From: a virus
Taxonomy: Duplodnaviria; Heunggongvirae; Uroviricota; Caudoviricetes
Direction: 5' to 3' (one strand)
Length of the DNA stretch: 43,389 bases
IMG/VR virus record: IMGVR_UViG_2778261064_000026
Span: 1-43,389 of that record
Shown here: positions 889 through 42,480 of the stretch, piece after piece
Layout of the letters: the number at the start of each line of letters is the position of its first letter
Position numbering within the stretch: position 1 is the stretch's first letter
Position numbers and translations under genes: made by a program
Notes under the pieces: generated by a model
What the model was told of the DNA's origin: nothing
Databases searched by the model: none
Seen by the model: the letters and a program-made list of their open reading frames with translations, nothing else

Positions 889-2568
889 ATGAAAACTAAA
901 CTGTATTCGTATATTCGCTTCTCGTCTATGCGTCAGAATGATGGTTCGAGTTATGAACGACAAATCAGGATGGCGAGAGAGATTGCGGCAAAGTATGACC
1001 TTGAACTGGTAAATGATTATCAGGATCTGGGTGTATCTGCGTTTAAGGGTGCTAACTCTAAAACAGGGGCGCTATCTCGTTTCCTTGATGCAATTGGTAG
1101 ATCCGTTCCTGTTGGTAGCTGGCTATTCATCGAAAACTTGGACCGTTTATCCCGTGCCGATATTGTCAGTGCGCAGGAGTTATTCCTTTCAATCATCCGT
1201 AGGGGAATAACCATTGTTACTGGCATGGATAACAAGATCTACTCGCTGGATACTGTTACCGCTAATCCGATGGACCTGATGTTCTCCATCCTTTTATTCA
1301 TCCGTGGTAATGAGGAAAGTCAGACTAAGCGCAATCGTACTAATTCAAGCGCACTGATTAAGATTAAATCGCATCAAGAAAATCCCCAGAATCCGGCAGT
1401 GGCAATCGAGGAAGTTGGAAAGAATATGTGGTGGACTGATACCACTTCCGGTTATGTGCTGCCTCATCCGGTGTACTTCCCTGTTGTTCAGGAGATTGTG
1501 GAATTACGGAAGAATGGACGTTCAACCGCCGAAATACTGGATCACCTTAACGAGACATATGCACCACCACCAGCAGTAAGCAACAAGAAGCATTCAAAAT
1601 GGTCACGGGCAATGGTTGAAAGGTTGTTCCATACCCGCGCTTTGATTGGTATCAAGGAAGTCTCTGTAGATGGCGTTAACTATGAGTTAAAGGATTATTA
1701 CCCTCGTGTTATTGATGACCCTACGTTCTATCACCTTAAGAAAAATATTGGTGCTAGAGCATGGAACTTTGGAGACAAGGAAGAAGTTAAACCGATCCCC
1801 CTGCTTAGTGGTATTGGCCTATTGAAATGTGATCATTGCGGTTGCGCTATGGTTAAAGTGAAGGGAACAAACAAACGTTCTGACCAGTATCGTTATACAT
1901 GTGATGCGACCCGTTCACGTAGACTTGATTGCGAGCATCCAAACTGGAGTTTTCGAGGGGATCAATTAGAGAAAGCTGTATTGCAATTGCTGGCTGATAA
2001 AATCTGGATTGCTGAGGATAAGGCTAATCCGGTTCCGGCGTTGAAAGTACAGGTTGATGAAATATCACGCAAGATTGATAACCTGATTGCCCTTTCTGCT
2101 ATGACAGGAGCAACGAAGGAGCTAGCCGATCAGATTACTACCCTCAATAGCGAGCGTGAAACACTCTACAATCAGATCAAGATGGCAGAAGAGGAAATGT
2201 ATTCTGTTGACTCTCAAGGCTGGGAGAAGCTCGCAGAATTTGATTTAGAAGATGTTTATAACGAGGAACGACTAAAGGTCCGGTTTAAGATTAAGCAAGC
2301 TCTAAAGCGGATCGGGTGTAGCAGGATTGACAGAAACAAAAACTTGTTTGTACTGGAATACATCGATGGAAAGACCCAGAGAGTTGTAATAGAAAATTCA
2401 AGAGGAACGAGGAAAGGCCGGATATTCATTGATTTGAAAACTATCAATGATAGGCAGATTCTGGAGAGTAACGGGCTTGTTCTGCATCCATGTTTAGACA
2501 TGCTGACAGATAAGAACTGGAAACCAGAGGAGGAAATACCAGGTCCATTACAGGAATTTGGAATTTAA
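889..2568 (+). CDS. large serine recombinase (integrase/resolvase-type), 559 aa
   Basis: N-terminal YIRFSSMRQ catalytic-Ser motif and LDRLSR motif of serine recombinases; Cys-rich zinc-ribbon-like segment (CDHCGC...C...C); C-terminal coiled coil. Confidence 0.8.
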   Translation: MKTKLYSYIRFSSMRQNDGSSYERQIRMAREIAAKYDLELVNDYQDLGVSAFKGANSKTGALSRFLDAIGRSVPVGSWLFIENLDRLSRADIVSAQELFLSIIRRGITIVTGMDNKIYSLDTVTANPMDLMFSILLFIRGNEESQTKRNRTNSSALIKIKSHQENPQNPAVAIEEVGKNMWWTDTTSGYVLPHPVYFPVVQEIVELRKNGRSTAEILDHLNETYAPPPAVSNKKHSKWSRAMVERLFHTRALIGIKEVSVDGVNYELKDYYPRVIDDPTFYHLKKNIGARAWNFGDKEEVKPIPLLSGIGLLKCDHCGCAMVKVKGTNKRSDQYRYTCDATRSRRLDCEHPNWSFRGDQLEKAVLQLLADKIWIAEDKANPVPALKVQVDEISRKIDNLIALSAMTGATKELADQITTLNSERETLYNQIKMAEEEMYSVDSQGWEKLAEFDLEDVYNEERLKVRFKIKQALKRIGCSRIDRNKNLFVLEYIDGKTQRVVIENSRGTRKGRIFIDLKTINDRQILESNGLVLHPCLDMLTDKNWKPEEEIPGPLQEFGI

Positions 2569-2604: not shown

Positions 2605-2636
2605 AAGGGGTACAGATGTACCCCTTTTTAATTTAA
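2605..2636. terminator. bidirectional terminator between convergent genes
   Basis: aaggggtacagatgtacccctt hairpin with flanking A and T runs. Confidence 0.55.
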
Positions 2637-2641
2637 TTGCG

Positions 2642-3817
2642 TTAGGCAGCGTCTAAGAGAGTATTAAAGTATTCATCCATTAAATCAGGACTGTCGTCAT
2701 CAATACAGAAAAATTCCGGTTTATTGATGCCGTAGAAGTGAGTATGTAGCTTGAATGTATCGTCATCAAATACATCTTTCTGGGATACCCACATATTAGC
2801 CTCGTCCGGTTGATTGGTTAGGTAGTCATAAACCAGTTGCTGTAAGTGTGGTAACTCATCAATAGTCAGAGTTTCCGACCATCCATCCTTGAAATCTTTG
2901 TAGGGTGCTGCATGAGTCTTGAAGCGTTGTTTTACTTCATGCTCTAAATCAACGGCTTTCCAACCATCCTCAAACTCATGAGTAAAGATTAAGCGGTGAG
3001 TGAAGTTGCTCTTTCTGGTTTGCTCTCTCATTCGTTCTTCTGGTTTCCGGGTAGTGATTCCAAATTTAATAAATTTGTCATCTAATAATTGAATATAGAA
3101 ACTAGCCTTACCCTGATAAGTCCGGTTAGACAGTTGCACCAGTTGGTCTTTAATGCAAAGCGGACAAGTGAAAGAATCAGCACATCTTAAATGAGATTCC
3201 CATTCGTGATTATGTGTCTTGCAATAGGTTTTAAATTTAACATCCTTTAGGTGTGGGGTGTTTATGATGAATCCTTTGAAGGTGTAAGGCGTACTCTCGC
3301 AACGTGCATTGATGATTGTCTCTTTGTCCTTAATAACTTCATCAAAAGTCTTGCCACTTCTTACCCGTTGGGATTTTTCAGCCATACAGATTTTGCAATC
3401 AAAATCGAAATCATCTTTGAGAGCATGTAATAGAGATGGCGTCATGATTTGATTGTGTTCAGGGCACAAAACACGGGATTTTGTCTTGTTGCGCCCTTTC
3501 CATTCTCCTTGCCATCCGAGGAATTTCTTTCCCTTCTCATTACAACGAGATTCCATTTTCAACCATACAGCCTTTTCAGTCTGGAGTAACTCACCCCCGT
3601 TAGTATCTTCCAGTTTGCGTAATTTGTAGTCCTTATATTCTTGTGTATCTAAATTGTAGATTCGAAAGTAAGTGTGATTACCCTTCCACGGTAGGATAAA
3701 TCCACCAAATACGAAAGCAGGTTCCAGTTTAGCGATGATTCGTTGTTGGTACTCTTCCGGCGATAAACCGCGAGTTTTCTTAACAAAAGGAATTTCGGCA
3801 GCGTAAGCAAGTTTCAT
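2642..3817 (-). CDS. T5orf172 (GIY-YIG-like) domain protein with several Cys-pair zinc-finger-like motifs, about 391 aa from internal ATG
   Basis: FIKFGITTRKPEERMREQ motif; multiple CxxC/CxxH pairs; start moved to MKLAYAAE because of RBS gaggaaact; track ORF extends to 3928. Confidence 0.5.
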   Translation of the reverse strand: MKLAYAAEIPFVKKTRGLSPEEYQQRIIAKLEPAFVFGGFILPWKGNHTYFRIYNLDTQEYKDYKLRKLEDTNGGELLQTEKAVWLKMESRCNEKGKKFLGWQGEWKGRNKTKSRVLCPEHNQIMTPSLLHALKDDFDFDCKICMAEKSQRVRSGKTFDEVIKDKETIINARCESTPYTFKGFIINTPHLKDVKFKTYCKTHNHEWESHLRCADSFTCPLCIKDQLVQLSNRTYQGKASFYIQLLDDKFIKFGITTRKPEERMREQTRKSNFTHRLIFTHEFEDGWKAVDLEHEVKQRFKTHAAPYKDFKDGWSETLTIDELPHLQQLVYDYLTNQPDEANMWVSQKDVFDDDTFKLHTHFYGINKPEFFCIDDDSPDLMDEYFNTLLDAA

Positions 3818-3876
3818 AGTAGTTTCCTCTAAAATAATAAGCTCACTACTATTTATTAGAGAAAATTGTCTTACTA

Positions 3877-3904
3877 TTGCATTCTCTATCTGGATGTGTA
3901 CAAT
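3877..3904 (+). promoter_or_regulatory. sigma70-like promoter (TTGCAT, 16-nt spacer, TACAAT) for the 3971 gene
   Basis: hexamers read directly from sequence. Confidence 0.3.
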
Positions 3905-3970
3905 ACGCGACCCTAAATCCCAAACCAACCATATTGAGGTTATGCCTATAAGTTAAAAAGTGAGGTCTAT

Positions 3971-4540
3971 ATGATTCCAGTAATGGCTAAAGATATTGTT
4001 TTTACTCCTAAATCCTCCCGTGCTGCAACTCCATCGGCATTAGAACAACGCATTCTGACTCACATCAAAGAGAAGGACTTACCGTTAGTCTTTCATGGCT
4101 TTCTGGGTGAGTTTAAAGGGCTTCATTCAAGAATTGCTCTTACATGTACCCGATGCGGCAATAGAGCCGACAAATCAGCTACCAACCTGCTTAATGAAGG
4201 TAAACGCTGTGCATGTCTCAAAAGTGATTACTTTCAATATAAAGCGGGTGTGCCTTATCTCTATGTAATGAAATCAGGGGATATTGGTAAATTTGGTGTA
4301 ACAAAGTCAATCATCAAGCGACGTGTTAATCTGGGTGTACGCAATCCCGGTCATAACTTTGATATTGTCTTTGCTGGTGAAATGCCATCAATGAAACATG
4401 CTTTAGCCACTGAAAGAGCAATAAAGAGATTACTGGATGTGGGTATAGGCGGGATTGAATACGGCAAAACTGAAACATTCCACTACTGCAATAAATCACT
4501 AAACAATATAAAGAATATTGCAAGTGTGGAGTGGAACTAA
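3971..4540 (+). CDS. T5orf172/GIY-YIG-like domain protein, 189 aa, N-terminal Cys cluster
   Basis: YLYVMKSGDIGKFGVTKS motif; RBS gtgagg; stop overlaps helicase start (TAATG). Confidence 0.4.
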   Translation: MIPVMAKDIVFTPKSSRAATPSALEQRILTHIKEKDLPLVFHGFLGEFKGLHSRIALTCTRCGNRADKSATNLLNEGKRCACLKSDYFQYKAGVPYLYVMKSGDIGKFGVTKSIIKRRVNLGVRNPGHNFDIVFAGEMPSMKHALATERAIKRLLDVGIGGIEYGKTETFHYCNKSLNNIKNIASVEWN

Positions 4541-6030
4541 TGCAAGATATTAAAATTCATTTTCAAGATTACAGTTTCGTTAAGGTTGATTGCTCTCCTT
4601 CTATCGGAATGGAATTAAGAGATTATTTCTCGTTTGAGGTTGAAGGGGCTAGGTTTAGCCCCCGCTACAAGTATTCCGGCTGGGATGGACGAATAAGACT
4701 GTTTACGCATGAAAATATCCTACCAATTGGACTATTAAAAACGTTGGGTGTCTTCGTTAAAAATATGGGCTATTCAGTCTGGATTGACCCGCGATTGCTT
4801 GAGAAGGAAGATGTAACCAAAGACGCGATTAATGAATGGATTGATTCCCTAGAAGTGTATTCCGGTTCCAATAAAATCAATCCTTACTGGTATCAAAGGG
4901 AGGCAGTCTTTCAGGGTATCCATAATCGCCGTAGAATGCTGGTTCTTCCTACCAGTGCCGGAAAGTCATTGATTGCTTGTATGCTGTCTCGTTGGTACTT
5001 AGAGAACTACACCGGAAAGATTCTAATCATTGTCCCGACTACATCGCTGGTGGTTCAAATGAGGGATGATTTTGTTGATTATCGGTTATTCCCTTATGAA
5101 GCAATCCATACAATGATGAGTGGTAGCGGGAAACATCCGGGAGACAGGTTAATCACGGTTAGTACCTGGCAATCAGCTTGCAAGATGCCTCCTGAATGGT
5201 TCAAACAATATGGAATGTTGATAGTTGATGAATCGCATAAGGCTAGTGCCAAAAATATTACCAATATCATTAACGGAATGAATCATTGCCAGTTTAAGAT
5301 CGGTATGACTGGTTCCCCGAAAGAATCAAAGTGCCATTTAATGCAATACGTCGGTATGTTCGGTGATATTTCTAAGATCGTGAGTATTGACCGCCTGATG
5401 GAAGAAGGGCAGGTGACAAAACTGAAAATTAACTGTCTTTTCCTTCGTTATACCGATGAGGAATGTAGCGCGGTTAAGGGGCGAGAATATGCGGAAGAGA
5501 TCAAGTACATCACTTCGCACGGGAGACGAAATAAGTTTGTGTGTAATTTGGCGCTAAAACTCGCTAAGAAGAACGAAAACGTATTTCTGATGTTCCGTAA
5601 CACTAAACACGGAAAACTTATGTATGACGCGTTACAGAAGGTACATGATAAGGTTTATTACATTGATGGTGGAGTTAAGACAGAAGAACGTGATGAATTT
5701 AAGAAAATGGCGGAGGGTGACACCGGGATCATTTGTGTTGCGTCTTATGGTGTGTTCTCTACTGGTGTTTCAATTAAGAACTTGCACCATGTCATTTTCG
5801 GTCATCCGGTGAAAGAATCAACTATCGTTCGTCAGAGTATTGGCCGTGCATTGCGTAAACATGGTTCTAAGGATATTGCGACCGTCTGGGATCTTATCGA
5901 TCATCTGTGTATATTCGGTCGTAACGGAAAAGTCAAGCATAAAAATTATGCGGTAAAACATGCACTTGAGAGAATCCGCTATTATCTAACCGACAAGTTC
6001 AGCTATGCAACTAAAACAATTGCTATATAA
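4540..6030 (+). CDS. SF2 DNA helicase, UvsW-like (recombination/repair helicase), 496 aa from ATG 4540
   Basis: Walker A LPTSAGKS, DExH box IVDESHKAS, motif VI QSIGRALRKHG; N-terminal domain and motif order resemble my recollection of T4 UvsW. Confidence 0.7.
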   Translation: MQDIKIHFQDYSFVKVDCSPSIGMELRDYFSFEVEGARFSPRYKYSGWDGRIRLFTHENILPIGLLKTLGVFVKNMGYSVWIDPRLLEKEDVTKDAINEWIDSLEVYSGSNKINPYWYQREAVFQGIHNRRRMLVLPTSAGKSLIACMLSRWYLENYTGKILIIVPTTSLVVQMRDDFVDYRLFPYEAIHTMMSGSGKHPGDRLITVSTWQSACKMPPEWFKQYGMLIVDESHKASAKNITNIINGMNHCQFKIGMTGSPKESKCHLMQYVGMFGDISKIVSIDRLMEEGQVTKLKINCLFLRYTDEECSAVKGREYAEEIKYITSHGRRNKFVCNLALKLAKKNENVFLMFRNTKHGKLMYDALQKVHDKVYYIDGGVKTEERDEFKKMAEGDTGIICVASYGVFSTGVSIKNLHHVIFGHPVKESTIVRQSIGRALRKHGSKDIATVWDLIDHLCIFGRNGKVKHKNYAVKHALERIRYYLTDKFSYATKTIAI

Positions 6031-6031
6031 C

Positions 6032-6063
6032 AAAAAAGCGCCCACTAGAGGCGCTTTAATTTT
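6032..6063. terminator. bidirectional terminator separating rightward block from leftward late operon
   Basis: aaagcgcccactagaggcgcttt hairpin flanked by A-run and T-run. Confidence 0.6.
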
Positions 6064-6415
6064 ATCCATTCCACCGTGATTTTTTTGATCTGGAATCAAT
6101 ATGCGTAAAGGTTTTATATTTGCCTAAGCCGTATTGAGTAGGATATTTCCCATCAAGATAAGCATGGACAATATCAGGGGAGACACCCTTGACCACAATG
6201 TCAGCCGCACGACCTCGAACGTGATAGCTGTTGGTTGCACCGCCTACATTCTTGTTATGAGTCGGACAACGGTTCCCACTGTTAATAATTACTGGTTTCC
6301 CGAAGTGTTCGCGTACATCCTCAAGAATCACCAGTAATTCAGCGTCGATTGTATCATAATCACATTTTCCGCATTTACATTTAAATTCCTTGCGAGAAAA
6401 ATGCTTACTTAACAT
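6062..6415 (-). CDS. peptidase M15-family cell-wall hydrolase (putative endolysin), 117 aa
   Basis: SGNRCPTHNKNVGGATNSYHVRGRAADIV and HID motifs typical of zinc D-Ala-D-Ala carboxypeptidase-like phage lysins. Confidence 0.6.
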   Translation of the reverse strand: MLSKHFSRKEFKCKCGKCDYDTIDAELLVILEDVREHFGKPVIINSGNRCPTHNKNVGGATNSYHVRGRAADIVVKGVSPDIVHAYLDGKYPTQYGLGKYKTFTHIDSRSKKSRWNG

Positions 6416-18104: not shown

Positions 18105-21100
18105 TCATTTACAGGATTTAATAGCCGCAAGTTCAGCTTTAACAGCTTTCAACTCTTCGTTCATCGCATCATACTTAGTCGTTAATTCCTGAAAGGCTTT
18201 CACGAAAAGAGCATTGATACTAGAAACAGAAATAGTTTTAATTTCTCCTGGATTTTCGGTATCTCCATCGCTGCAAACGTGCACAGCTTCCGGCATAACT
18301 TTTTCCACATCTTGAGCAATGACACCTAATTCGCGTCCAACCACTGTATCATCAGAAAGTGATTTAACTTTATCGTAGGAATATACGGTTAAGCTGTTTA
18401 ATTTATCCAGCGCACCTTCTTCCAATTCTTCCTTGTTGATCTTAAGACGTTCATCAGATCGAATATGCACATCGTTAAAGCTACCGTTACCCGGCGTGTA
18501 AAAGAACCCATCGTGATGGAACTCAAATACAGCTTGAGGGTGTCCGTTATCAGGTGAGTTTTCCGCAGATCCAACACGAATAATTGCTTGTCCCCAATTG
18601 TTAGGGATACGACGCATACCAAAATCGACGGCAGTTGTATACCCTTGATTGGTGATTAAACTTCTTGCTTTAACAATCGGATAATAACAGTCTTGTCCAA
18701 CATAGCCATGATCGACGAATATTGGCGCTTCCACTCGCCACTGATTACCCCAATCACCTGGTTGACTAGCGGTCCAACGTTCACCATGAACATATAATCG
18801 AGCGTTATTAACATGAACCATTTCGACGCCTTTTGGACTTAATGCAATATCCCCAGCGTTCGTAAGATTTATCGCGGCATTAGTAGCATAGCTATAGAAC
18901 GCTAATCCATTATCACCACCGCCTTTACCAATATACCAGTTGTTGTTGTCAGCACACGTACCCAACAAATATACAGACGAATCACCACTTTCGGCATTCA
19001 TGATAATTGCATCAGATCCACGATTAATTTTCATTTTCCCGAAGAAGGTGTTTTTAATGGTATTATCCCATAGACGTTCAAATTCGGCTAAAAATCCTTT
19101 TGAGTCACGAAGACTTAAAACGTTATTTCGACCTGTATTGCTTGCTCCCCAATGGACGAGTTCCATATAGTCCATAGATTGACGAGAACCAGCTTTAAAG
19201 AAAAGATTGTCCTCAAGACGAGTGCTACCATCAATTCCAAGATGCAAACACCGAGCGGTTGCAGTACCACCTAAATACAATCCACCGTCCGCAAAATCAT
19301 AGCTGAATGGTCTGCGATTATTCCAACTACCAAAAGAATCTTTTAAATCGGTAGTAAGAATATGGAAGCTAGAACCATCATTGCGTAACATCAAACCATA
19401 GTTACCGCCTTTGACAGCCAAACGAGCATTTTCAGATAATGCAACTTCGCTATTCATTACAATTTTCTGGCCTTTACCACCAGTAATATGTAATTCACCA
19501 TCTTCAATCAGGTTTATCGAGTTTTGACCGTTATCGTTCCACCAAATAAAATCTTTGGTTGTTCCATCACCAAAACCAAACCAGCCATTACGAACATCTT
19601 GACCAGTGCGATAATCCATAAAATTAAAATGGCTTGATTCGTTTGGTCCTCGACGAATATCAATACCAGAATTTCCAGTAACACCGCCATCCAATGTTAA
19701 TTTCTTGACATGTAACCCGGATGTTACTGTCAGCAATAATTCCTGATTTGTATCTTCGTATCCAGTAGCAAGACGATATGCGTTATCATCAACTGTCTCA
19801 TGCCAGATTGTAGCTGGTGCACAACTACGGAAGCGACGCAACATCTTTTTAGCATTTGTCGGTTGTTCGTTTAAATGCTCAATGTCGTATTGGCCTTGAT
19901 GGTTTCCAGCAAAATTTAATGTCCCACGGTTGCTAAAGTTATTAAACGATGAAATGTTAAGAGCATCAAAAATTTCATCTGCAACAGGTTTTTCACCGCC
20001 CAGGTATTCAGGAGTATCCAACAGGTTTAAAGAAACACCACCGGAAGAAACTTGATATTCTGCTAAAACAAATCCTGTATGTGCACCATAGTAAGCGTAA
20101 AGATCGTAATTATCACCATCGGTAGGAATTGCACAAAAATGTTGTTCGTAATACCAAATAGTATAATACGCATTGAATACAACACCTTTCGGGCTATTGT
20201 TGCCGCAACGGATCACCAGTTCAATAACATTGGCTTGTCCATTCTGTCCGACGTTATAACCGTTACCACCCACTAAACGGATCTTAGCCGTACGACCGTG
20301 TTGTTGTGGCATTGTCAAAGTGCCTAGTTTAAACCAACCGCCCTCGATCCCAAAATTAAGCGTCTTCTGGAAAAGTCGGTCAATTTCTGCTTTCGAATAT
20401 GCGCCAATTTCAGCCGGAGTAGGTTTATCACCTTCGTGATACATGCGGTGAGAATATGCTAAATGACCCAATTCATCATAGCCGTATGTTCTTACCGTAG
20501 CATGTGGATTAGACCCATAAGTGAACTCAAAACCACGAGCATGATTAACACCGGATGGATGGGGAACATGCAACGCTAAAGCAATATGACCAGCTAGATC
20601 ATTCATGCGGAATGCACCAAAGTAATCAAGATTACGAGCATTTGGATCATCAAAATAGTTTGCGGTCTTAGACAGCAAATAACCATCAGTGTAAGTGTTT
20701 ACGTGTTTTTTGATGTACTTACCGTCACTCGATCCGTCGGCTGCATCAATACGGCTTTCTAAGCGTGCCAATTCAGAATCAGTGTAAGACTTGTTATTGT
20801 CAACTTTGCTATGAATTGCTGAATTTTTGGCTTCAACATCACGGGTTAATGCTGCGACGTTATCCGCTGCCTCTTGCTTGTTTGCTGCAATAACACTATT
20901 AAGGCTATCGCGCGTAGCGGTTAGCTGATTTTCCGCATAAATTTTATTTGCTGCGATAGTGCGATCAGTCTCGGCCTTAATCAAATCAACTTTGTCATTG
21001 ATAGCTTTATCATTGCTTGCGATGGTTGCATCAGTACGGGATTTAATATCATCAACTTTTTTATTGATGCGGGTGTCCAGTTCCTGAGTTGCTACAGCAG

Positions 21101-21533
21101 CCGCATTTTTATTAGCGGTGATGGTATCGGACAATTCAGATTTAACACCAGCAAGATCGGAAGCAGCTTTATTTTTATTGGCTTCGATTGTCGCGTCGGT
21201 TTCGCGTTTAATTGTATCAACTTTATTGTTAATTTCTGCGTGATTGTTGGCAATAGTAGAATCGGTAGTTCGTTTAATTTCGTCTACTTTAGCGTGAATA
21301 TTGCGGTCGTTTACTGCAATTGTGCTATCTAATTCTTGTTTGTTAGCATCAACTTTAGATTCTAATGCCGCATGAGTTTCAGGAGAAACAGAGATTTGAA
21401 CTACTTCATGATCTCGGTCTTTGGTAAAAATAACATGGTCTTTAAGGTTGATTGCTACCTCACCGACCTGTAATTGTTCCGGCGTTGGCTTTTTGCCAGA
21501 AACATTAGTTCGTTTAAATTGGATTGATTGCAT
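18105..21533 (-). CDS. side tail fiber protein with C-terminal intramolecular chaperone auto-processing domain (peptidase S74-like), 1142 aa
   Basis: N-terminal coiled-coil repeats (VDEIKRTTDSTIA / VDTIKRETDATIEA / VDDIKSRTDATIA / VDLIKAETDRTIA); C-terminal HIRSDERLK plus about 117 aa typical of self-cleaving chaperone domains. Confidence 0.8.
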   Translation of the reverse strand: MQSIQFKRTNVSGKKPTPEQLQVGEVAINLKDHVIFTKDRDHEVVQISVSPETHAALESKVDANKQELDSTIAVNDRNIHAKVDEIKRTTDSTIANNHAEINNKVDTIKRETDATIEANKNKAASDLAGVKSELSDTITANKNAAAVATQELDTRINKKVDDIKSRTDATIASNDKAINDKVDLIKAETDRTIAANKIYAENQLTATRDSLNSVIAANKQEAADNVAALTRDVEAKNSAIHSKVDNNKSYTDSELARLESRIDAADGSSDGKYIKKHVNTYTDGYLLSKTANYFDDPNARNLDYFGAFRMNDLAGHIALALHVPHPSGVNHARGFEFTYGSNPHATVRTYGYDELGHLAYSHRMYHEGDKPTPAEIGAYSKAEIDRLFQKTLNFGIEGGWFKLGTLTMPQQHGRTAKIRLVGGNGYNVGQNGQANVIELVIRCGNNSPKGVVFNAYYTIWYYEQHFCAIPTDGDNYDLYAYYGAHTGFVLAEYQVSSGGVSLNLLDTPEYLGGEKPVADEIFDALNISSFNNFSNRGTLNFAGNHQGQYDIEHLNEQPTNAKKMLRRFRSCAPATIWHETVDDNAYRLATGYEDTNQELLLTVTSGLHVKKLTLDGGVTGNSGIDIRRGPNESSHFNFMDYRTGQDVRNGWFGFGDGTTKDFIWWNDNGQNSINLIEDGELHITGGKGQKIVMNSEVALSENARLAVKGGNYGLMLRNDGSSFHILTTDLKDSFGSWNNRRPFSYDFADGGLYLGGTATARCLHLGIDGSTRLEDNLFFKAGSRQSMDYMELVHWGASNTGRNNVLSLRDSKGFLAEFERLWDNTIKNTFFGKMKINRGSDAIIMNAESGDSSVYLLGTCADNNNWYIGKGGGDNGLAFYSYATNAAINLTNAGDIALSPKGVEMVHVNNARLYVHGERWTASQPGDWGNQWRVEAPIFVDHGYVGQDCYYPIVKARSLITNQGYTTAVDFGMRRIPNNWGQAIIRVGSAENSPDNGHPQAVFEFHHDGFFYTPGNGSFNDVHIRSDERLKINKEELEEGALDKLNSLTVYSYDKVKSLSDDTVVGRELGVIAQDVEKVMPEAVHVCSDGDTENPGEIKTISVSSINALFVKAFQELTTKYDAMNEELKAVKAELAAIKSCK

Positions 21534-30416: not shown

Positions 30417-31241
30417 TCACAGTCCGAAGACTTCCAGTGATCCAACATTCTGGCGTAGACGTTCAGCCGCTTTATTTTGAATCAGAATAGTGTTGTTCGG
30501 CTTAGGAAGATTCAGAGTTGCTTTTTGTTCTTCTTCCAGAACACCCAATTCAACCAGCACCGGAAGCACATCAACAGTAAACTCAAGCTGGTAGTGAGCA
30601 TTCATGCGGCAGAAAGACAGAGAAGAGTCATTAGCAACATACCCACACGGCTTGTTATTTTCATCGTAGACGCGCTCAATGTAGCCAGCAGTACGCAAGG
30701 CCGTTAGTGCTTCTTTAACCTTCGTAGCGCCCTTTTTAGCGCCTAACAGACGGGTCATTGAATGGCTATCTACTGATTTGCGAACATGAAGTTCAATCAG
30801 CTTTTTATTTTCGCGAGTTTTCTTTAATGCCAGTTCGATCCAGTCTGTTTCTTCAAAGTCTGCATACGGGTTAACGGCTAAACGTTCCTGACGCAGTTTT
30901 TCATTTTCTTCTTTCAGTCGCTTCCATTCCTGAATAACAACCATTCGACGCTTAACATCGTAACCAGTGACAAGAGTCAGCGTCATTTCTTCGTCTAAGT
31001 GATATACTGGTTCTTTAACAGCATATCCTAAGTTATTGATTCTCTCGACAAATTCAGTTTTGAGCTGATCGATAATACCTAAAGATTCGTACATTTCGCG
31101 AATATCGCGCATTACATTGCTGTGCTTCTTATCGGTAAATTCAGCGATCTGACGGGAAGACATGGTCAGCGGTTTGGTGTTATCGACAACCAGAGACACG
31201 GAAGCAGTTTTAGCAGTATTCATAACGGTAACAGTATTCAT
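30417..31241 (-). CDS. Rha-family phage regulatory protein (antirepressor-like), 274 aa
   Basis: N-terminal LTMSSRQIAEFTDKKHSNVMRDIREM typical of Rha domain. Confidence 0.7.
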   Translation of the reverse strand: MNTVTVMNTAKTASVSLVVDNTKPLTMSSRQIAEFTDKKHSNVMRDIREMYESLGIIDQLKTEFVERINNLGYAVKEPVYHLDEEMTLTLVTGYDVKRRMVVIQEWKRLKEENEKLRQERLAVNPYADFEETDWIELALKKTRENKKLIELHVRKSVDSHSMTRLLGAKKGATKVKEALTALRTAGYIERVYDENNKPCGYVANDSSLSFCRMNAHYQLEFTVDVLPVLVELGVLEEEQKATLNLPKPNNTILIQNKAAERLRQNVGSLEVFGL

Positions 31242-37226: not shown

Positions 37227-38204
<978 letters not shown>

Positions 38205-38635: not shown

Positions 38636-39478
38636 CTATACTGCCAGCATATCAGGATAGTGTTTTGCGATAATATCATTCAGTCTGTCAACCAGTTCTG
38701 GTTTTCTGAACGTGATATGCGCGGAGCCCTTCTTAAAGTATCTGATGCTGAACATCTCATCTTCATAGCTCTCTTTACCCTGAACAGACTGAATGTGATC
38801 ATCCAGACGAAGGGTGATGTTTCCCCGGTTGTCGGGGATTGGTTTACCGCTGAACAGGTGCAACATTCTTTCCAGATCGGCGAGTCGGTCAGCCTGTTGT
38901 CCGGTGATAAGATGAAATCCCCACCGGTCCCATCTCACCAGATTGTTGACGATAATTTTACTGCCAAATTTACAGGGGCAATTGGTTTTGTAATTCCAGT
39001 TCAGCCCTCTGAAGACGTTGATCACCCCTCGCTCAAACACCTCATCCTTATTCTGGTGCAGTTGTTCAAATGTGCTCAGAATGTTCGCTTCGCTGATTTC
39101 CGGAAAATTATCGTACTCCAGTGACCGGTACCATGTATCACGGGCCTGCGTATCCATTAATGACAGCATCCCGGAACGTTGCATCAGGTCACGCCAGATT
39201 TCGCGATCAAGATTCCGGGTAATGGCTTTCATTGCTGTTTCGGGTTTCTCCATCAGCCAGCAGCCGCAGCGAAAATCCTGTTTCATGGCCCAGTCCGGGG
39301 CAGTTTTACCTCCGATGCTTTCCGTCAGCACCGAGATTTCAGCCAGTTGTCGGATAAGTGTGTCGATTTGCAACAGTGTACTCTTTCGTACAGCCAGAAT
39401 GTGGCGAATGCTGGTTGAGCAGATAACGTCCGTATGCCCGTTGACCACTTCCGGACGGGAGATTGTGATATCTGACAT
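38636..39478 (-). CDS. DUF4942-type island protein, 280 aa
   Basis: recollection of conserved gene set of CP4-type E. coli islands; position beside toxin-antitoxin module. Confidence 0.45.
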   Translation of the reverse strand: MSDITISRPEVVNGHTDVICSTSIRHILAVRKSTLLQIDTLIRQLAEISVLTESIGGKTAPDWAMKQDFRCGCWLMEKPETAMKAITRNLDREIWRDLMQRSGMLSLMDTQARDTWYRSLEYDNFPEISEANILSTFEQLHQNKDEVFERGVINVFRGLNWNYKTNCPCKFGSKIIVNNLVRWDRWGFHLITGQQADRLADLERMLHLFSGKPIPDNRGNITLRLDDHIQSVQGKESYEDEMFSIRYFKKGSAHITFRKPELVDRLNDIIAKHYPDMLAV

Positions 39479-39562
39479 AATCGATATTCCTTTTTGCAGA
39501 TAAATGAAAACGCCAGCCCTGTGCAGGCTGGCGTCAGAGGAATGAAGTCTGGTGAGTGAGCT

Positions 39563-39760
39563 TCACCGGTTCTGGTGCAGAAGCTGCAGATGACGCAGGG
39601 TACGGACATCCTCCCGGGCCTGTTCGATACAGGGCAACAGTGCTGCTGAATCCGTTTTATCCTCATCGTTGTCAAAGATAATTCCCGATCCGCAGTCGAT
39701 ATTGTCCTGCAGCCACGCAATCAGAATATCCAGCGCTGTTTCCGTGGTTAATGATTTCAT
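39563..39760 (-). CDS. small island protein (DUF957-like), about 65 aa from MKSL
   Basis: ORF track (39563..39805) trimmed to internal ATG to avoid overlap; conserved neighbourhood. Confidence 0.3.
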   Translation of the reverse strand: MKSLTTETALDILIAWLQDNIDCGSGIIFDNDEDKTDSAALLPCIEQAREDVRTLRHLQLLHQNR

Positions 39761-39771
39761 GTTGTTCCTGG

Positions 39772-40263
39772 TTACCAGTCGAAAGTGGGTAAACCCGGCA
39801 GGCATTCAGCGCTGGCATCCAGATGAATGAGACTGACGCCATAACGCCGGATGAGTGTGACGACCAGACGACGGAACGTTTTTGACAGCCCCAGGCGTTT
39901 AAGCCGCAGAACCGGGTATGACCACGCATCGGTACGTAACAGATATCCGCTACCTGTAAAATGAATCCATTCTGATTCACCGAAGTCACTGGTCTGGTGT
40001 GACAGCGAGTACAACCAGGCGTTGTCCGTTTCCGTGATATGTGCGGTACTGCAGCGTATGCCGGTAAGGGTAGCAAATGGTGGCGTGCATTCTGCTGAGG
40101 TCTGGTCAGATTCATCAACAACACGAAGGGAGTAGCCGTTATCGCAGACCATGTTAATCAGTTCAGCGAGCTCAATACCATCGACGTCAACGACAATGCG
40201 CCCCATGTTCAGTGCCTGTACGTTAACGCTGTCGGCTTCCAGTGTCAGGGCCAGTTTCATCAT
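39772..40263 (-). CDS. YeeW-like/DUF5983-type protein, 163 aa
   Basis: gene directly downstream of cbtA-family toxin, as in CP4-type islands. Confidence 0.4.
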
Positions 40264-40634
40264 TTCGCCTCCGGATACTTACCCAGGGTAATGTTATTTA
40301 CCGTTCTGTAATTGTCGCGGGTCATCAGGCCGGTCGCCCGGCGAGCCCGGAGGATATCAATACTGTTTATTAACTGAGAGCGGGGACAGGTGCTGAATCC
40401 CGGCTGGTCGGTACGCACCAGCGCGTATTTTTCCACGAGAAAATTAACTGCATCACACAGTGAAATGCCTGCCTCAATATGCTGCTCAATCACACGTTCA
40501 TCGGCAAACGGTGTGTCATTCAGTGTGAGGCCATAATGCTGGTCCAGCAGTCGGATGAGCAGTGTCTGCCAGATGGTGACGGGAGACGGGCAGCGAGATA
40601 CCTCCCGTACATGTGTGTCGGATAATGTTTTCAT
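40260..40634 (-). CDS. cbtA: type IV toxin, CbtA/YeeV/YkfI family, 124 aa
   Basis: [59 protein letters not shown]... matches CbtA-family sequence as I recall it; track ORF extends to 40736. Confidence 0.8.
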
Positions 40635-40680
40635 CTTAAGTTCTCTGTAACTGGTAGTGCTAAAGGTGAGAGCTTCGGGG

Positions 40681-41055
40681 TTATGAGGTGGTTGCGGGTG
40701 CTGGTGTCGGATAAACAGCCAGATAAACGTAACCACAGGAGCCGAGGGTGTCGGCTTCGCAGGTCAGCCCTTTTGCATTCAGCGTGACGGTATGCTGATA
40801 TCGGGGATTCAGTTCACCGCTGGTGAGCATGAGTTCCAGTTGTTTCATCAGCAGCGGAAAGGCCTGGTCCAGATGGTATGCATCTGCGTCGCTGAAGCGG
40901 CCTCTGATACCGGCGCGGTCGGCAAGGTAATGCAGGCGGTTACCCTCTTGCACCAGACGAGCGCCAAAACAGGGCCTCACTGTGCAGGGAAGCCCCCACC
41001 AGGGGCGGTCGTGATTGTCATCGGGATGAGTTATCCCGGAGAGTTTGTCTGACAC
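40681..41055 (-). CDS. cbeA: type IV antitoxin, CbeA/YeeU/YafW family, 124 aa
   Basis: [51 protein letters not shown] matches YeeU-family; upstream of toxin. Confidence 0.8.
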
Positions 41056-41217
41056 GATAAAATCCTCTCTGAAAAGTGGTTAAGAATGGTTTAACGATGA
41101 CAGGTCAGCCGGCGCGCTGACCGGTTTCGGTGAAGATGTATGCATTGATGAGAATGGCCTCATCCACAGCGGCGTCTGAGGTCATCTGGTCGTACTCGTT
41201 TCCCGGGTGACGGAACA

Positions 41218-41439
41218 TCAGTTCAGGGTGACACTCATCAGCCGGACATACGGGCCAAAACTGTCCTTACGGCGTTCTGCAAACACGGCAAGAACGCCGG
41301 GAATATCCTGCACTTCACGACCAGTATACGCTTCAGCACTGCCGTGCCAGCGATACTTACCGGTACAGAACGGAAAAAGACGGGATGCAGGATGCTGTTG
41401 GTGAATACGCATGGCTTCACCACGGGTGATGATTCTCAT
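41218..41439 (-). CDS. YeeT-like (DUF987) protein, 73 aa
   Basis: MRIITRGEAMRIHQQHPASRLFPFCTGKYRWHGSAEAY... matches K-12 YeeT family as I recall it. Confidence 0.6.
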   Translation of the reverse strand: MRIITRGEAMRIHQQHPASRLFPFCTGKYRWHGSAEAYTGREVQDIPGVLAVFAERRKDSFGPYVRLMSVTLN

Positions 41440-41502
41440 GATGTGATACCTCTGAAGACAGAAGATAAAAGTGAAAACAGGTGTGATGTTGGTTGTGACG
41501 GG

Positions 41503-41994
41503 TTAAAGCAGACCATGTTCGGCAAAGGAGAAAACCTGGTTGCCACCGACTATCAGATGGTCCGGCACCCGGATATCCACCAGGCCCAGTGCCTGTACCA
41601 GACGTTCGGTGATAAGCCGGTCTGCCTTACTGGGTGTGACTTCACCGGACGGGTGATTGTGCGCCAGCACCACGGCAGCGGCATTGTGGTACAGGGCGCG
41701 TTTAATCACTTCCCGGGGATGAACTTCCGTACGGTTGATGGTGCCGGTGAAGAGGGTTTCACCGGCAATCAGCTGATTCTGGTTGTTCAGATACAGCACC
41801 CGGAACTCTTCCCGCTCCAGTCCCGCCATGTTCAGAATCAGCCATTCCCGTGCCGCACGGGTGGAGGTGAAGGCCACGCCGGGTTCATGAAGATGGCGGT
41901 CCAGGGTTTGCAGGGCCCGCAGAATGAGACTGCGCTCGCCGGGCGTCATCTCTCCGGGCAGAAAGGAAAGCTGCTGCATTGTCCCTGCCTCCAT
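41503..41994 (-). CDS. RadC-like JAB-domain protein (YeeS/YkfG/YfjY family), 163 aa
   Basis: HNHPSGEVTPSKADRLIT motif typical of RadC/JAMM fold. Confidence 0.75.
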   Translation of the reverse strand: MEAGTMQQLSFLPGEMTPGERSLILRALQTLDRHLHEPGVAFTSTRAAREWLILNMAGLEREEFRVLYLNNQNQLIAGETLFTGTINRTEVHPREVIKRALYHNAAAVVLAHNHPSGEVTPSKADRLITERLVQALGLVDIRVPDHLIVGGNQVFSFAEHGLL

Positions 41995-42480
41995 TCAGTC
42001 AATGATGCGCATAATGGCGCTGCATTCCGGATGCTGCAGGGCGTAATCCCGCAGCCGGTAATAGTGGACCGTCATGGCATAACACTCCGTACGACAGGCA
42101 TGATGACTGTACGTCATCAGACAGGCAGCAATACCGGCGGCTTCCGGGCTCATTTCAGCGCGGTTGCCGTTCATGGCATTGAACAGTACCCATGTTTCGT
42201 CATCATCGTCATCCGGTTCGGGTGCCATAAATGCCCCGCCGTTGTTCAGGGTGTACAGATTCCAGATACCACCGCAGTAGTCTTCGCAAAGACGGTCCAT
42301 CCAGCCGAAGACACGGGGCTCCAGGGTCACCCACTGTGGAATGAGGCCAAAATGCTGCGGCCAGAAGCTGATGCGCTGTTCATCAGGGACGGGAGTGGCA
42401 ACCAGCTGAGGTGGGTTATTCCCTGATGCAGTGGTTACGGAAACAGAAGGTGTGGTGGAATTATGCGAAACGGTTGTCAT
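41995..42480 (-). CDS. antirestriction protein, KlcA/ArdB-like (YfjX family), 161 aa
   Basis: conserved island gene order; acidic DDDDDE patch; family recognised from K-12 paralogs. Confidence 0.65.
   Translation of the reverse strand: MTTVSHNSTTPSVSVTTASGNNPPQLVATPVPDEQRISFWPQHFGLIPQWVTLEPRVFGWMDRLCEDYCGGIWNLYTLNNGGAFMAPEPDDDDDETWVLFNAMNGNRAEMSPEAAGIAACLMTYSHHACRTECYAMTVHYYRLRDYALQHPECSAIMRIID

What the first reader, a model, noticed from the sequence alone, without database searches (positions are those of the whole stretch)
3971..6030. T5orf172-like gene translationally coupled to a UvsW-like helicase
The 189-aa T5orf172-like ORF ends in TAATG overlapping the helicase start codon, so the two are co-translated. 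The helicase has a full SF2 motif set and an N-terminal domain that I recall as closely resembling T4 UvsW, a recombination and R-loop helicase. A nuclease-like protein coupled to a branch-migration helicase could be a recombination-dependent replication module, or a two-gene nuclease-helicase defence pair.
Basis: partly seen in the sequence, partly recalled or inferred. Interest (0 to 1): 0.5.

Follow-up and report, generated by a model that had tools for sequence, protein, structure and literature searches.

The report
Homing nuclease beside prophage-borne UvsW helicase
A temperate E. coli prophage carries a genuine copy of the T4-type UvsW helicase, taken from virulent T4-like phages, and the small nuclease gene just upstream is most likely a selfish homing endonuclease parked at that gene, as segE is in T4, and not a working partner of the helicase.

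Summary
A 189-aa ORF (3971-4540) ends in TAATG, overlapping the start of a 496-aa helicase (4540-6030).

The helicase is a true UvsW orthologue: E=7e-186 and 54% identity to T4 UvsW, about 80% to Krischvirus UvsW. The small protein has a CapR zinc finger plus a GIY-YIG/T5orf172-type nuclease domain, which is the architecture of T5orf172 homing endonucleases.

The window is a ~36-kb E. coli prophage. Its slot between integrase and endolysin holds a decaying, colinear piece of a T4-like genome (inh', uvsW, uvsW.1, uvsY, 51', 27'), and sister prophages keep different parts of it. The window's uvsW carries a 549-nt patch 94% identical to phage Phi1.

The pair separates both ways:
- Eight sister loci (four of them among 17 helicase-bearing complete E. 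coli genomes) keep uvsW after microhomology deletions of both nuclease genes.
- Others keep a nuclease homologue without a helicase.

In virulent Krischviruses, uvsW is flanked by optional homing endonuclease genes on either side, and T4 segE sits at inh/uvsW and targets uvsW.

The best reading is a free-standing homing endonuclease beside its target gene, not a recombination module or a defence pair. This is a new member of a known kind. The exchange between a prophage and virulent phages gives it moderate interest.

The parts
889..2568 (+). Large serine recombinase (prophage integrase). It forms the left border of the variable cargo slot.
   Evidence: Pfam Resolvase, Recombinase and Zn_ribbon_recom. 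The flank is 96-99% conserved in sister prophages whose cargo differs.
2605..2626 (.). Bidirectional terminator-like hairpin between the integrase gene and the convergent long nuclease gene.
   Evidence: Terminator scan, 9-bp stem on both strands.
2642..3817 (-). Long CapR-repeat plus MUG113/T5orf172-type (GIY-YIG clan) homing-endonuclease-like gene. It is 391 aa from the ATG at 3817; the open frame extends to a TTG at 3928. It is transcribed divergently from the short gene.
   Evidence: Pfam CapR 2.7e-9 and MUG113 1.2e-5. PHROG 681 endonuclease 3.9e-44. PGAP calls it a 'GIY-YIG nuclease family protein'. The closest phage homologues are Krischvirus genes, including a 361-aa gene between uvsW and uvsW.1 in Whisky and JK32.
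3818..3970 (.). Divergent intergenic region shared by the long and short nuclease genes. It presumably holds the promoters; none passed the strict sigma-70 scan.
   Evidence: Sequence and promoter scan. Window 3815-4010 stays 83% identical in L015 even though both gene bodies are replaced. Window 3794-3898 is retained in the deletion allele L001.
3971..4540 (+). Short (189 aa) CapR zinc-finger plus T5orf172-like GIY-YIG nuclease gene. This is the putative free-standing homing endonuclease at the position upstream of uvsW.
   Evidence: Invariant residues are C59, C62, C80, C82 (CxxC...CxC) and Y96/Y98, G106-K107-x-G109, R117, E148, T167-E168-T169-F170.
4070..4216 (+). CapR-type zinc-finger DNA-binding domain of the short protein (residues ~34-82).
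   Evidence: Pfam PF21817 residues 34-80, 25.2 bits against a 24.2 cut-off. The four cysteines are invariant in 13 alleles. The motif is described in PMC10448857.
4250..4486 (+). GIY-YIG/T5orf172-type nuclease domain of the short protein (residues ~94-172).
4433..4540 (+). 3' end of the short gene, which travels with uvsW. It is kept in the HEG-deleted alleles and is identical between alleles that are otherwise 45% identical. It contains the uvsW ribosome-binding site.
   Evidence: L001 and L025-L028 retain exactly this part. The C-terminal 23 aa are identical in P0012-P0016 and in the window protein. The DNA homology block with L015 starts at 4469.
4528..4542 (+). GGAG (4528-4531) and the TAATG stop/start overlap (4538-4542).
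   Evidence: Sequence. PGAP annotation of sister loci shows the same 1-nt overlap.
4540..6030 (+). uvsW orthologue (496 aa): an SF2 helicase with the UvsW N-terminal domain. It is intact and under purifying selection.
   Evidence: dN/dS is 0.03-0.19 in the 32 of 55 pairs where dS was not saturated, and all 8 prophage alleles examined are intact.
5359..5907 (+). Recent conversion patch inside uvsW. It is 549 nt and 93.6% identical to Krischvirus Phi1 and Whisky, while the rest of the gene is 53-78% identical to them.
   Evidence: Sliding identity and best-segment analysis. The same patch is 96.8% identical in L001 and absent from L019.
6035..6057 (.). Bidirectional terminator-like hairpin between uvsW and the convergent endolysin gene. 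It marks the right end of the cargo.
   Evidence: Terminator scan. Flank homology to cargo-variant prophages resumes at 6024-6028.
6062..6415 (-). Peptidase M15 endolysin, first gene of the conserved lysis and tail block. It forms the right border of the variable slot.
   Evidence: Pfam Peptidase_M15_3 3.5e-28. It is conserved in all sister prophages.

Best explanation
The 189-aa gene is a free-standing homing-endonuclease-type gene of the CapR zinc-finger plus T5orf172/GIY-YIG class. It sits immediately upstream of a uvsW helicase gene that a temperate E. coli/Salmonella prophage lineage acquired, together with neighbouring genes, from T4-like (Krischvirus-type) phages.

Shown:
- The identity and architecture of both proteins.
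- The window is a prophage whose integrase-to-endolysin slot holds a colinear, differentially decayed T4-like segment: inh' - short nuclease - uvsW - uvsW.1 - uvsY - 51' - 27'.
- uvsW is intact, under purifying selection, and mosaic, with a recent Krischvirus-derived patch.
- The nuclease genes and the helicase can each occur without the other.
- uvsW in virulent Krischviruses and in T4 is flanked by optional homing endonuclease genes.

Inferred:
- The nuclease binds a specific sequence through its zinc finger and cuts nuclease-less alleles at or near the uvsW locus, in related prophages or in co-replicating T4-like phages.
- Repair from the nuclease-bearing copy spreads the gene and co-converts flanking uvsW sequence. 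This would explain the mosaicism and the recurrent adjacency.
- The compact TAATG junction reflects the usual tight insertion of such genes, with the downstream gene's ribosome-binding site embedded in the nuclease's 3' end. It does not indicate a stoichiometric enzyme pair.
- UvsW itself probably still works as a branch-migration and R-loop helicase, and is an accessory, dispensable function for this prophage.
For: 1. Architecture. The CapR domain is above the Pfam cut-off with an invariant CxxC...CxC motif. The fold is GIY-YIG with invariant Arg117 and Glu148. This is the architecture described for T5orf172 homing endonucleases (PMC10448857).

2. Sporadic distribution among near-identical prophages. 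Of 58 E. coli genomes with the flanks, 13 have both nuclease genes plus uvsW (12 window-type, and FDAARGOS_1267 with another long allele and a uvsY fragment), 4 have uvsW alone, and about 37 have no helicase.

3. Separability. L001 and L025-L028 lost both nuclease genes through deletions at 8- and 9-bp microhomologies but kept uvsW. L009 keeps long and short homologues without uvsW.

4. Cassette-like allele replacement. The flanks are 95-98% identical while the short gene is 45% and the long gene 28% identical.

5. T4-like synteny. Sister loci carry an inh fragment (95% nt to Phi1), uvsW.1 (95-99% aa), uvsY (up to 100% aa), and 51' and 27' fragments (97% nt), all in Krischvirus order and orientation.

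6. Recent exchange. Window 5359-5907 is 93.6% identical to Phi1, against 53-78% for the rest of the gene.

7. Precedent at the same gene:
- Krischviruses G5211, AV108 and PTE-Eco09 carry a Seg-like GIY-YIG gene between inh and uvsW; Phi1 does not.
- Whisky and JK32 carry a CapR/T5orf172 gene between uvsW and uvsW.1. It is homologous to the window's long gene and lies within the divergence range of the prophage long alleles.
- T4 segE is inserted at inh/uvsW with uvsW as its target (PMC2988022).

8. No defence-model match for either nuclease.
Against: - No cleavage site or homing event can be shown computationally.
- No sequenced or metagenomic T4-like phage was found carrying this particular short gene at inh/uvsW, so the donor is hypothetical.
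- The short gene stays next to uvsW across alleles as divergent as 43-51% identity, with always-tight spacing. A functional pairing would also predict this.
- uvsW stays intact and under purifying selection while its T4-like neighbours decay. This suggests a benefit to the prophage or host that the selfish-gene reading does not itself explain.
- The window itself contains no inh remnant, so only the right-hand T4-like arm is present here.
Confidence: 0.6

Rival explanations
1. Inter-phage weapon or defence. The prophage expresses the zinc-finger nucleases to cut superinfecting T4-like (Krischvirus) genomes at the uvsW region. The prophage's own diverged uvsW copy is the uncut 'immune' allele, or prophage-made UvsW additionally dissolves origin R-loops of the invader. 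The host or prophage gains partial exclusion. The biochemistry would be the same as homing, but the selected benefit would be protection.
For: - The cargo sits in a variable integrase-proximal slot typical of prophage accessory and defence genes.
- Flanks are 95-98% conserved while the nuclease alleles are 28-45% identical, as expected for conflict genes.
- Repeated, very recent patches of Krischvirus DNA (94-97% nt; one uvsY fragment 100% at protein level) show that these prophages meet Krischviruses in the same cell.
- A GIY-YIG anti-T4 restriction enzyme, PD-T4-3, is among the fold matches.
- Homing endonucleases are known to mediate interference competition between co-infecting phages (PMC11620839), and T5orf172 nucleases act in the ICP1-PLE conflict (PMC10448857).
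- uvsW is kept intact.
Against: - There is no PADLOC hit for either nuclease.
- Most family members (about 37 of 58 genomes) have lost the helicase and many have lost the nucleases too.
- There is no evidence that the genes are expressed in the lysogen.
- The homing reading explains the same data without assuming a host benefit.
- The helicase is not needed for a nuclease-based exclusion.
Confidence: 0.2
2. Functional recombination and repair module. UvsW migrates branches and the co-translated GIY-YIG nuclease cuts the junctions or forks that it processes, serving replication or repair of the temperate phage.
For: - The stop/start overlap, with tight spacing in all alleles.
- The best fold matches are SLX1-type structure-specific GIY-YIG nucleases.
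- No recognisable replication module was found in the prophage, so UvsW is its only obvious DNA-metabolism enzyme apart from the integrase and the two nuclease genes.
- There is purifying selection on uvsW.
Against: - The pair separates in both directions.
- T4-like phages, where UvsW function is established, lack this gene.
- The N-terminal CapR zinc finger indicates sequence-specific rather than structure-specific recognition (PMC10448857).
- A second, divergently transcribed paralogue of the same class lies alongside.
- About two thirds of the prophage family lack the whole module.
Confidence: 0.1
3. Domesticated regulator. Like PLE CapR, the zinc-finger protein acts mainly as a sequence-specific DNA-binding repressor, for example of uvsW, of the divergent promoter region, or of genes of an invading phage, with nuclease activity lost or irrelevant.
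For: - The CapR homology domain is the only Pfam domain above its cut-off.
- CapR itself is a domesticated relative of T5orf172 endonucleases (PMC8096241, cited here from its title and abstract as listed; also PMC10448857).
- The gene lies next to a shared divergent control region.
Against: - The GIY-YIG-type Tyr, Arg and Glu positions and the C-terminal TETF motif are invariant across alleles that are only 40-45% identical. This argues for a maintained catalytic site.
- The fold is confidently predicted.
Confidence: 0.05

Closest known systems
T4 SegE, the free-standing GIY-YIG homing endonuclease inserted between inh and uvsW with uvsW as target (Kadyrov et al. 1997, as tabulated in PMC2988022)
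   Same: It is a free-standing nuclease gene of the GIY-YIG superfamily, in the same orientation and immediately upstream of uvsW. It is sporadic among close relatives. In sister prophage L009 an inh fragment lies to its left, reproducing the inh/[HEG]/uvsW arrangement.
   Different: There is no detectable sequence similarity to the Seg-like gene that occupies this site in Krischviruses. The nuclease belongs to the T5orf172/MUG113 branch and uses a CapR zinc finger for DNA binding. It resides in a temperate prophage rather than a virulent T-even phage. Cleavage and homing are untested.
T5orf172-family homing endonucleases with CapR zinc fingers, from ICP1, T5-like and other phages (Barth, Dunham & Seed 2023, PMC10448857)
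   Same: The domain architecture matches: an N-terminal CapR CxxC...CxC zinc finger, repeated in the long gene, followed by a C-terminal T5orf172/MUG113 nuclease. The genes sit next to a conserved DNA-metabolism gene and at the boundaries of recombination blocks. Alleles are modular and swapped.
   Different: The family here is narrow: 16 protein clusters, all from one E. coli/Salmonella prophage lineage. The nearest phage homologues of the short gene are only 24-28% identical. This sequence is below the Pfam T5orf172 cut-off.
T4 UvsW helicase (PDB 2oca, 1rif) and Krischvirus UvsW
   Same: The proteins are colinear over the full length, including the UvsW N-terminal domain and the SF2 motifs. 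Identity is 54% to T4 and 80-82% to Krischvirus proteins. Sister loci keep uvsW.1, uvsY, 51 and 27 remnants in T4-type order.
   Different: It is encoded in a lambdoid-type temperate prophage without uvsX, gene 32 or the rest of the T4 replisome. The window has no uvsW.1. The gene is a chimera of an older 'prophage-type' backbone and a recent Krischvirus patch.
Nuclease-helicase anti-phage systems (Hachiman HamAB, PbeA-type, type IV restriction helicase-nucleases; PADLOC models)
   Same: A nuclease gene lies adjacent to an SF2 helicase gene, in a variable prophage slot.
   Different: The nucleases match no PADLOC model. The helicase matches only the generic SF2 core of PbeA, mREase_IV and HamB, with E-values of 1e-12 at best, against 1e-186 for UvsW. 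The two genes are not obligately linked.

Membership tests
UvsW helicase (T4-type SF2 branch-migration / R-loop helicase) | UvsW-specific N-terminal domain | tested here: met
   Pfam PF21241 UvsW_N, residues 3-83, full profile 1-81/81, E=3.2e-34.
UvsW helicase (T4-type SF2 branch-migration / R-loop helicase) | Full-length colinearity with T4 UvsW, including the SF2 ATPase motifs | tested here: met
   phmmer against 2oca_A covers residues 3-494 against 2-500, E=6.7e-186, with 54% identity. PTSAGKS, DESH (T4 DECH), TGS (T4 SGS) and QSIGRALR (T4 QTIGRVLR) are aligned.
UvsW helicase (T4-type SF2 branch-migration / R-loop helicase) | T4-type gene neighbourhood (inh / uvsW / uvsW.1 / uvsY / 25-26-51-27) | tested here: met
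   This is absent from the window itself. Sister prophages at the same slot retain inh', uvsW.1, uvsY, 51' and 27' in Krischvirus order and orientation.
UvsW helicase (T4-type SF2 branch-migration / R-loop helicase) | ATP-dependent unwinding of branched DNA and R-loops | not testable with these tools
   Only indirect evidence is available: an intact ORF in all 8 prophage alleles examined and dN/dS of 0.03-0.19.
T5orf172 / GIY-YIG homing endonuclease (CapR zinc-finger class) | GIY-YIG-fold nuclease domain with conserved catalytic Arg and Glu | tested here: met
   [not shown]
T5orf172 / GIY-YIG homing endonuclease (CapR zinc-finger class) | Pfam T5orf172 (PF10544) or MUG113 (PF13455) match above the gathering score | tested here: inconclusive
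   The window protein scores 13.7 bits, E=0.092, against a 20-bit cut-off. Of 13 alleles, 12 hit T5orf172 (best 1.9e-5), 6 hit GIY-YIG and 5 hit MUG113. The 73%-identical P0007 carries a precomputed PF10544 hit. The long neighbour passes MUG113.
T5orf172 / GIY-YIG homing endonuclease (CapR zinc-finger class) | CapR-type CxxC...CxC zinc-finger DNA-binding domain N-terminal to the nuclease | tested here: met
   PF21817 scores 25.2 bits against a 24.2 cut-off, residues 34-80. All 13 alleles hit it. C59, C62, C80 and C82 are invariant. The motif is as described in PMC10448857.
T5orf172 / GIY-YIG homing endonuclease (CapR zinc-finger class) | Free-standing gene with patchy presence among close relatives, beside a conserved gene | tested here: met
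   Present, absent and replaced states occur among prophages with 95-99% identical flanks. Both homology-block boundaries lie inside the short gene, near its two ends (about 4010 and 4469); the shared 3' block then runs on into uvsW.
T5orf172 / GIY-YIG homing endonuclease (CapR zinc-finger class) | Site-specific cleavage of the nuclease-less allele and preferential inheritance (homing) | not testable with these tools
   This needs in vitro cleavage assays and mixed-infection or induction crosses.
T4 Seg-type (SegE) endonucleases | Sequence homology to Seg proteins (canonical GIY-YIG with the Seg DNA-binding region) | tested here: not met
   BLASTP against the Seg-like gene at inh/uvsW of Krischvirus G5211 gives E=1.8, no significant match. 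It works like SegE by position but is not a Seg family member.
Known nuclease-helicase defence systems (PADLOC-DB v2) | Profile match of both components to a defence system model | tested here: not met
   The short and long nucleases hit 0 families. The helicase gives only partial generic SF2 hits: PbeA 4e-12, mREase_IV 1e-9, HamB 9e-6.
Known nuclease-helicase defence systems (PADLOC-DB v2) | Obligate co-occurrence of the two genes | tested here: not met
   uvsW occurs without nucleases in L001 and L025-L028, and in 4 of the 17 helicase-bearing complete genomes. Nuclease homologues occur without a helicase in L009.

The most novel reading that the evidence does not exclude
The prophage's T4-like island may be an active interface with virulent Krischviruses and not just debris. 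In this reading, prophage-expressed CapR/T5orf172 nucleases cut superinfecting T4-like genomes at the uvsW locus. The prophage copy, with inh' and uvsW as homology arms, then serves as the repair template. Nuclease genes and uvsW alleles would shuttle between a temperate and a virulent phage lineage, and the lysogen would gain partial exclusion. Prophage-made UvsW might add to this by prematurely dissolving the invader's origin R-loops.
Probability: 0.15. Interest if true: 0.7.

Novelty: new member of a known kind. Interest (0 to 1): 0.38.

Why it matters
The gene pair itself is ordinary: a selfish nuclease gene beside a well-known helicase. It should not be catalogued as a new nuclease-helicase defence or replication module.

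What is worth keeping is the context. A lambdoid-type E. coli/Salmonella prophage lineage carries a colinear fragment of a T4-like genome, from inh to gp27, and keeps exchanging sequence with present-day virulent Krischviruses. Tracts of 94-97% nt identity sit inside genes that are otherwise about 70% identical. Homing-endonuclease-type genes lie next to the exchanged segments.

This is a natural example of gene flow between temperate and strictly virulent phages, and of uvsW as a hotspot for homing endonucleases from two GIY-YIG-superfamily branches (Seg-type and CapR/T5orf172) in at least three distinct gene lineages. It gives a directly testable system, lysogen plus Phi1/RB49, for asking whether prophage-borne homing endonucleases act on superinfecting phages.

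Tried and rejected
- Two scans of the species-representative genome collection with UvsW, one as a single protein and one as an 8-sequence alignment, found no confirmed relative. Co-occurrence outside this lineage could not be assessed that way.
- Scans of IMG/VR and of the metagenome collection with the short-gene alignment returned only the same prophage lineage. No T4-like donor carrying this gene at inh/uvsW was found.
- I tested whether the conserved 3' end of the short gene hides a relic T4 late promoter. It has TATAAAGA at -33, against TATAAATA at -44 in Phi1. I rejected this because the motif lies in the codons of the conserved peptide NNIKN, is absent from alleles L012-L014, and no Krischvirus homology extends upstream of the uvsW ATG.
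- The sigma-70 scan found no promoter in the divergent intergenic region or upstream of uvsW, so the transcription units remain inferred.
- The repeat search found no inverted or direct repeats flanking the genes that would suggest transposition. It found only the 181-nt-spaced internal repeat of the long gene.
- The PADLOC search was negative for the nucleases.
- L001-type loci are not ancestral 'empty sites'. They retain the first 8 codons of the long gene and the last 35 codons of the short gene, and the junctions lie at 8- and 9-bp microhomologies. They are therefore deletions.
Full report
**1. Observation.** ORF 3971-4540 (+) encodes 189 aa. Its TAA stop (4538-4540) shares one base with the ATG (4540-4542) of a 496-aa ORF that ends at 6030, and GGAG lies at 4528-4531. 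PGAP annotation of 98%-identical E. coli loci shows the same 1-nt overlap.

**2. The helicase.** It is not merely UvsW-like. It is a UvsW orthologue.
- Pfam gives UvsW_N at E=3.2e-34, plus ResIII, DEAD and Helicase_C.
- It aligns end to end with the T4 UvsW crystal-structure sequence 2oca at E=6.7e-186, with 54% identity. The Walker A, DExH, motif III and motif VI positions are all in register.
- It is 80-82% identical in protein to UvsW of Krischviruses Phi1, G5211 and AV108.

**3. The small protein.** Pfam places only a CapR homology domain above its cut-off (residues 34-80). The T5orf172 model scores 13.7 bits (E=0.092), below its cut-off. However, 12 of 13 alleles of the family hit T5orf172 (best 1.9e-5), 6 hit GIY-YIG and 5 hit MUG113, and PHROG 681 'endonuclease' scores 2.1e-18.
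- Across alleles as low as 40% identity, the four zinc-finger cysteines stay invariant (C59, C62, C80, C82; CxxC...CxC). So do Y96/Y98, G106-K107-x-G109, R117, E148 and T167-E168-T169-F170.
- A CapR zinc finger followed by a T5orf172 nuclease is the architecture described for T5orf172-family homing endonucleases, where the conserved glutamate is catalytic (PMC10448857).
- The divergently transcribed neighbour at 2642-3817 (-) belongs to the same class, with CapR repeats plus MUG113 and PHROG 681 at 3.9e-44.

**4. Context.** The window is an E. coli chromosomal prophage.
- It has a large serine recombinase at 889-2568. On the minus strand are a lysis cassette, a J-like tail tip, a tape measure, a major head protein, a portal and a lambda-type large terminase.
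- Sister loci have ycdY just outside the integrase end. In the window a 2-hydroxyacid dehydrogenase gene lies at 37227-38204. I take it to be ghrA, from my own knowledge of the K-12 map.
- The flanks of the finding occur in 58 of 5,426 complete E. coli genomes.
- The interval between the integrase and the endolysin is a variable cargo slot, with these states:
  - 12 genomes carry long nuclease + short nuclease + uvsW, as in the window.
  - One genome (FDAARGOS_1267, L008) carries a different long allele + short nuclease + uvsW + a uvsY fragment.
  - 4 genomes carry uvsW only.
  - About 37 genomes have no helicase.

**5. The pair is separable in both directions.**
- *Helicase without nuclease.* L001, and IMG/VR loci L025-L028 with identical junctions, keep an intact uvsW. 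They lack window 2653-3793 and 3899-4432. The junctions lie at the microhomologies GGCAGCGT and CTGGATGTG. The first 8 codons of the long gene and the last 35 codons of the short gene remain. These are therefore deletion derivatives and not virgin sites.
- *Nuclease without helicase.* L009 has a 333-aa long homologue and a 193-aa short homologue (40% identical to the window's) in the same slot, with no helicase.
- *Cassette-like replacement.* In L015-type prophages the flanks are 95-98% identical to the window, but the short gene is 45% and the long gene 28% identical. DNA homology resumes only in the divergent intergenic region (3815-4010) and from 4469 onward.
- *A conserved 3' end.* The last 23 residues of the short protein are identical between these very different alleles. 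That 3' end, which carries the uvsW ribosome-binding site, belongs to the uvsW block.

**6. A T4-like island.** A tblastn survey of 26 loci with Krischvirus Phi1 proteins showed that the slot holds a colinear fragment of a T4-like genome in various states of decay.
- An internal inh fragment lies on the minus strand to the left of the short-gene position in L009, L010 and L011. In L009 it is 361 nt and 95% identical in DNA to Phi1.
- uvsW.1 follows uvsW in L012 and L019.
- L008 has a uvsY C-terminal fragment 100% identical in protein to Phi1 UvsY.
- L015-L018 and L024 have a full-length uvsY plus gp51 C-terminal and gp27 N-terminal fragments. One 279-nt piece is 97% identical to Phi1.
- The order and orientation match Krischvirus: inh(-) / uvsW(+) / uvsW.1(+) / uvsY(-) / ... 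/ 51(+) / 27(+).
- Even the majority 'empty' class keeps a 70-nt inh remnant. The island therefore appears ancestral to the E. coli members of the prophage lineage examined here.
- Only the short nuclease gene and uvsW remain in the window.

**7. Ongoing exchange with virulent phages.** The window's uvsW is a chimera.
- Bases 1-810 of the gene are 53-78% identical to Phi1, Whisky and G5211.
- Window 5359-5907 is 93.6% identical to Phi1.
- The last ~120 nt fall back to about 60%.
- In L001 the patch is 96.8% identical to Phi1. L019 shares the window's 5' part at 96-100% over its first ~450 nt (84-99% beyond) but has no patch.
- All eight prophage uvsW alleles examined are intact. Pairwise dN/dS is 0.03-0.19 wherever dS was not saturated (32 of 55 pairs), including close prophage-prophage pairs. 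The neighbouring T4-like genes, in contrast, are fragmentary.

**8. uvsW attracts homing endonucleases in T4-like phages.**
- Krischviruses G5211, AV108 and PTE-Eco09 carry a 243-aa canonical GIY-YIG 'homing endonuclease' between inh and uvsW, ending 4 nt before the uvsW ATG. Phi1 lacks it. It is unrelated in sequence to the window's short protein.
- Krischviruses Whisky and JK32 carry a 361-aa CapR/T5orf172-type gene between uvsW and uvsW.1. It is 24-34% identical to the prophage long alleles, which are themselves mostly 24-39% identical to one another.
- Other Krischviruses carry a 542-aa member of this class between gene 32 and frd.
- In T4 itself, segE is a free-standing GIY-YIG homing endonuclease inserted at inh/uvsW with uvsW as its target. 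[quoted passage not shown]
- Megablast homology between the window and Seg-carrying Krischviruses begins exactly at the uvsW ATG.

**9. Interpretation.** The most economical reading is that the short gene is a free-standing homing-endonuclease-type gene living at the uvsW locus, and probably the long one as well. The recurrent adjacency then reflects a nuclease next to its recognition or landing site, not two enzymes acting together.
- The compact TAATG junction is typical of such insertions and is not conserved as an overlap. Other alleles have 1-12-nt gaps.
- Cleavage specificity, homing and the timing of expression are inferred and not shown.
- The data do not exclude that the same nuclease activity is selected as a weapon against superinfecting Krischviruses. 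Homing endonucleases can mediate interference competition (PMC11620839), and T5orf172 nucleases act in the ICP1-PLE conflict (PMC10448857). The 94-97% identical patches prove that these prophages and Krischviruses recombine.
- A true nuclease-helicase recombination module or a catalogued defence pair is unlikely, given the separability, the sequence-specific DNA-binding domain, the absence of this gene from T4-like phages, and the negative PADLOC result.

**10. Limits.**
- No T4-like phage carrying this exact short gene was found in the phage, IMG/VR or metagenome collections.
- The species-representative genome scans were uninformative.
- No promoters were detected by the simple scan.
- Why uvsW, alone among the captured genes, stays intact is unexplained. 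It could serve the prophage, or it could be repeatedly refreshed by conversion from virulent phages.

**11. Verdict.** The gene pair is a new member of known kinds, namely a T5orf172 homing endonuclease and a UvsW helicase. The island shared between a prophage and virulent phages is the moderately interesting by-product.

Noticed in passing
window 18105-21533 (-): A 1142-aa tail-fibre gene is 83-87% identical in DNA, over 1.6-2.3 kb, to the long tail fibre distal subunit of Krischviruses (MIZ4, KFS-EC). This is a second locus where the prophage shares recent sequence with the same virulent phage genus.
   Followed up: partly
window ~600-37000 (whole prophage): The ~36-kb prophage lies between ycdY and a 2-hydroxyacid dehydrogenase gene that I take to be ghrA. 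It has complete head, tail, lysis and packaging genes. Apart from a Rha/anti-repressor-like gene (30417-31241), no recognisable replication or immunity module was found among the ORFs of 94 aa or more that were scanned with Pfam and PHROGs; smaller ORFs were not scanned. The stretch 32.2-33.3 kb has no ORF of 55 aa or more.
   Followed up: partly
window 38636-43389: Beyond the prophage lies a CP4-type island with DUF4942, DUF5983, CbtA toxin and DUF932 genes. It is unrelated to the finding.
   Followed up: no
L004 3265-3996; L006 1765-2496; L031 3501-4586; L032 3501-4586: In virulent Krischviruses, uvsW has two optional homing-endonuclease insertion sites. A Seg-like GIY-YIG gene sits upstream in G5211, AV108 and PTE-Eco09. 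A CapR/T5orf172 gene sits between uvsW and uvsW.1 in Whisky and JK32. The first 180 nt of uvsW differ sharply between Seg-carrying and Seg-less phages (54-73% identity).
   Followed up: partly
L009 3405-3765; L010 3405-3662; L011 2605-2674: Helicase-less sister prophages carry internal fragments of the Krischvirus inh (prohead protease inhibitor) gene, 90-96% identical in DNA to Phi1. RefSeq annotates them as small hypothetical proteins.
   Followed up: yes
L015 7574-7852 and 7847-8120: L015-type prophages have two adjacent copies of a gp51-end/gp27-start fragment. One is 97% and the other 77% identical to Phi1, which suggests successive captures or a duplication followed by conversion.
   Followed up: no
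window 3971-4060 and 3730-3817 (N-termini of the short and long proteins): The long and short nuclease proteins, and their alleles in sister prophages, share an N-terminal motif, roughly AKDI.FT.KS.RA.TP...E.RI, with 33-56% identity over 25-48 aa. Because the genes are divergent, the motifs flank the shared control region. Their role is unknown.
   Followed up: no
window 3373-3400 and 3554-3581: A direct repeat with 181-nt spacing lies inside the long nuclease gene. It is consistent with tandem CapR-type DNA-binding modules as described for T5orf172 endonucleases (PMC10448857).
   Followed up: no
[not shown]
   Followed up: no
L001, L025-L028 (equivalent to window 2653-3793 and 3899-4432): The same double-deletion allele, with identical junctions, occurs in prophages whose integrases are only 86-99% identical to the window's. 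The nuclease-less uvsW cassette has therefore itself moved between prophage backbones by recombination.
   Followed up: partly
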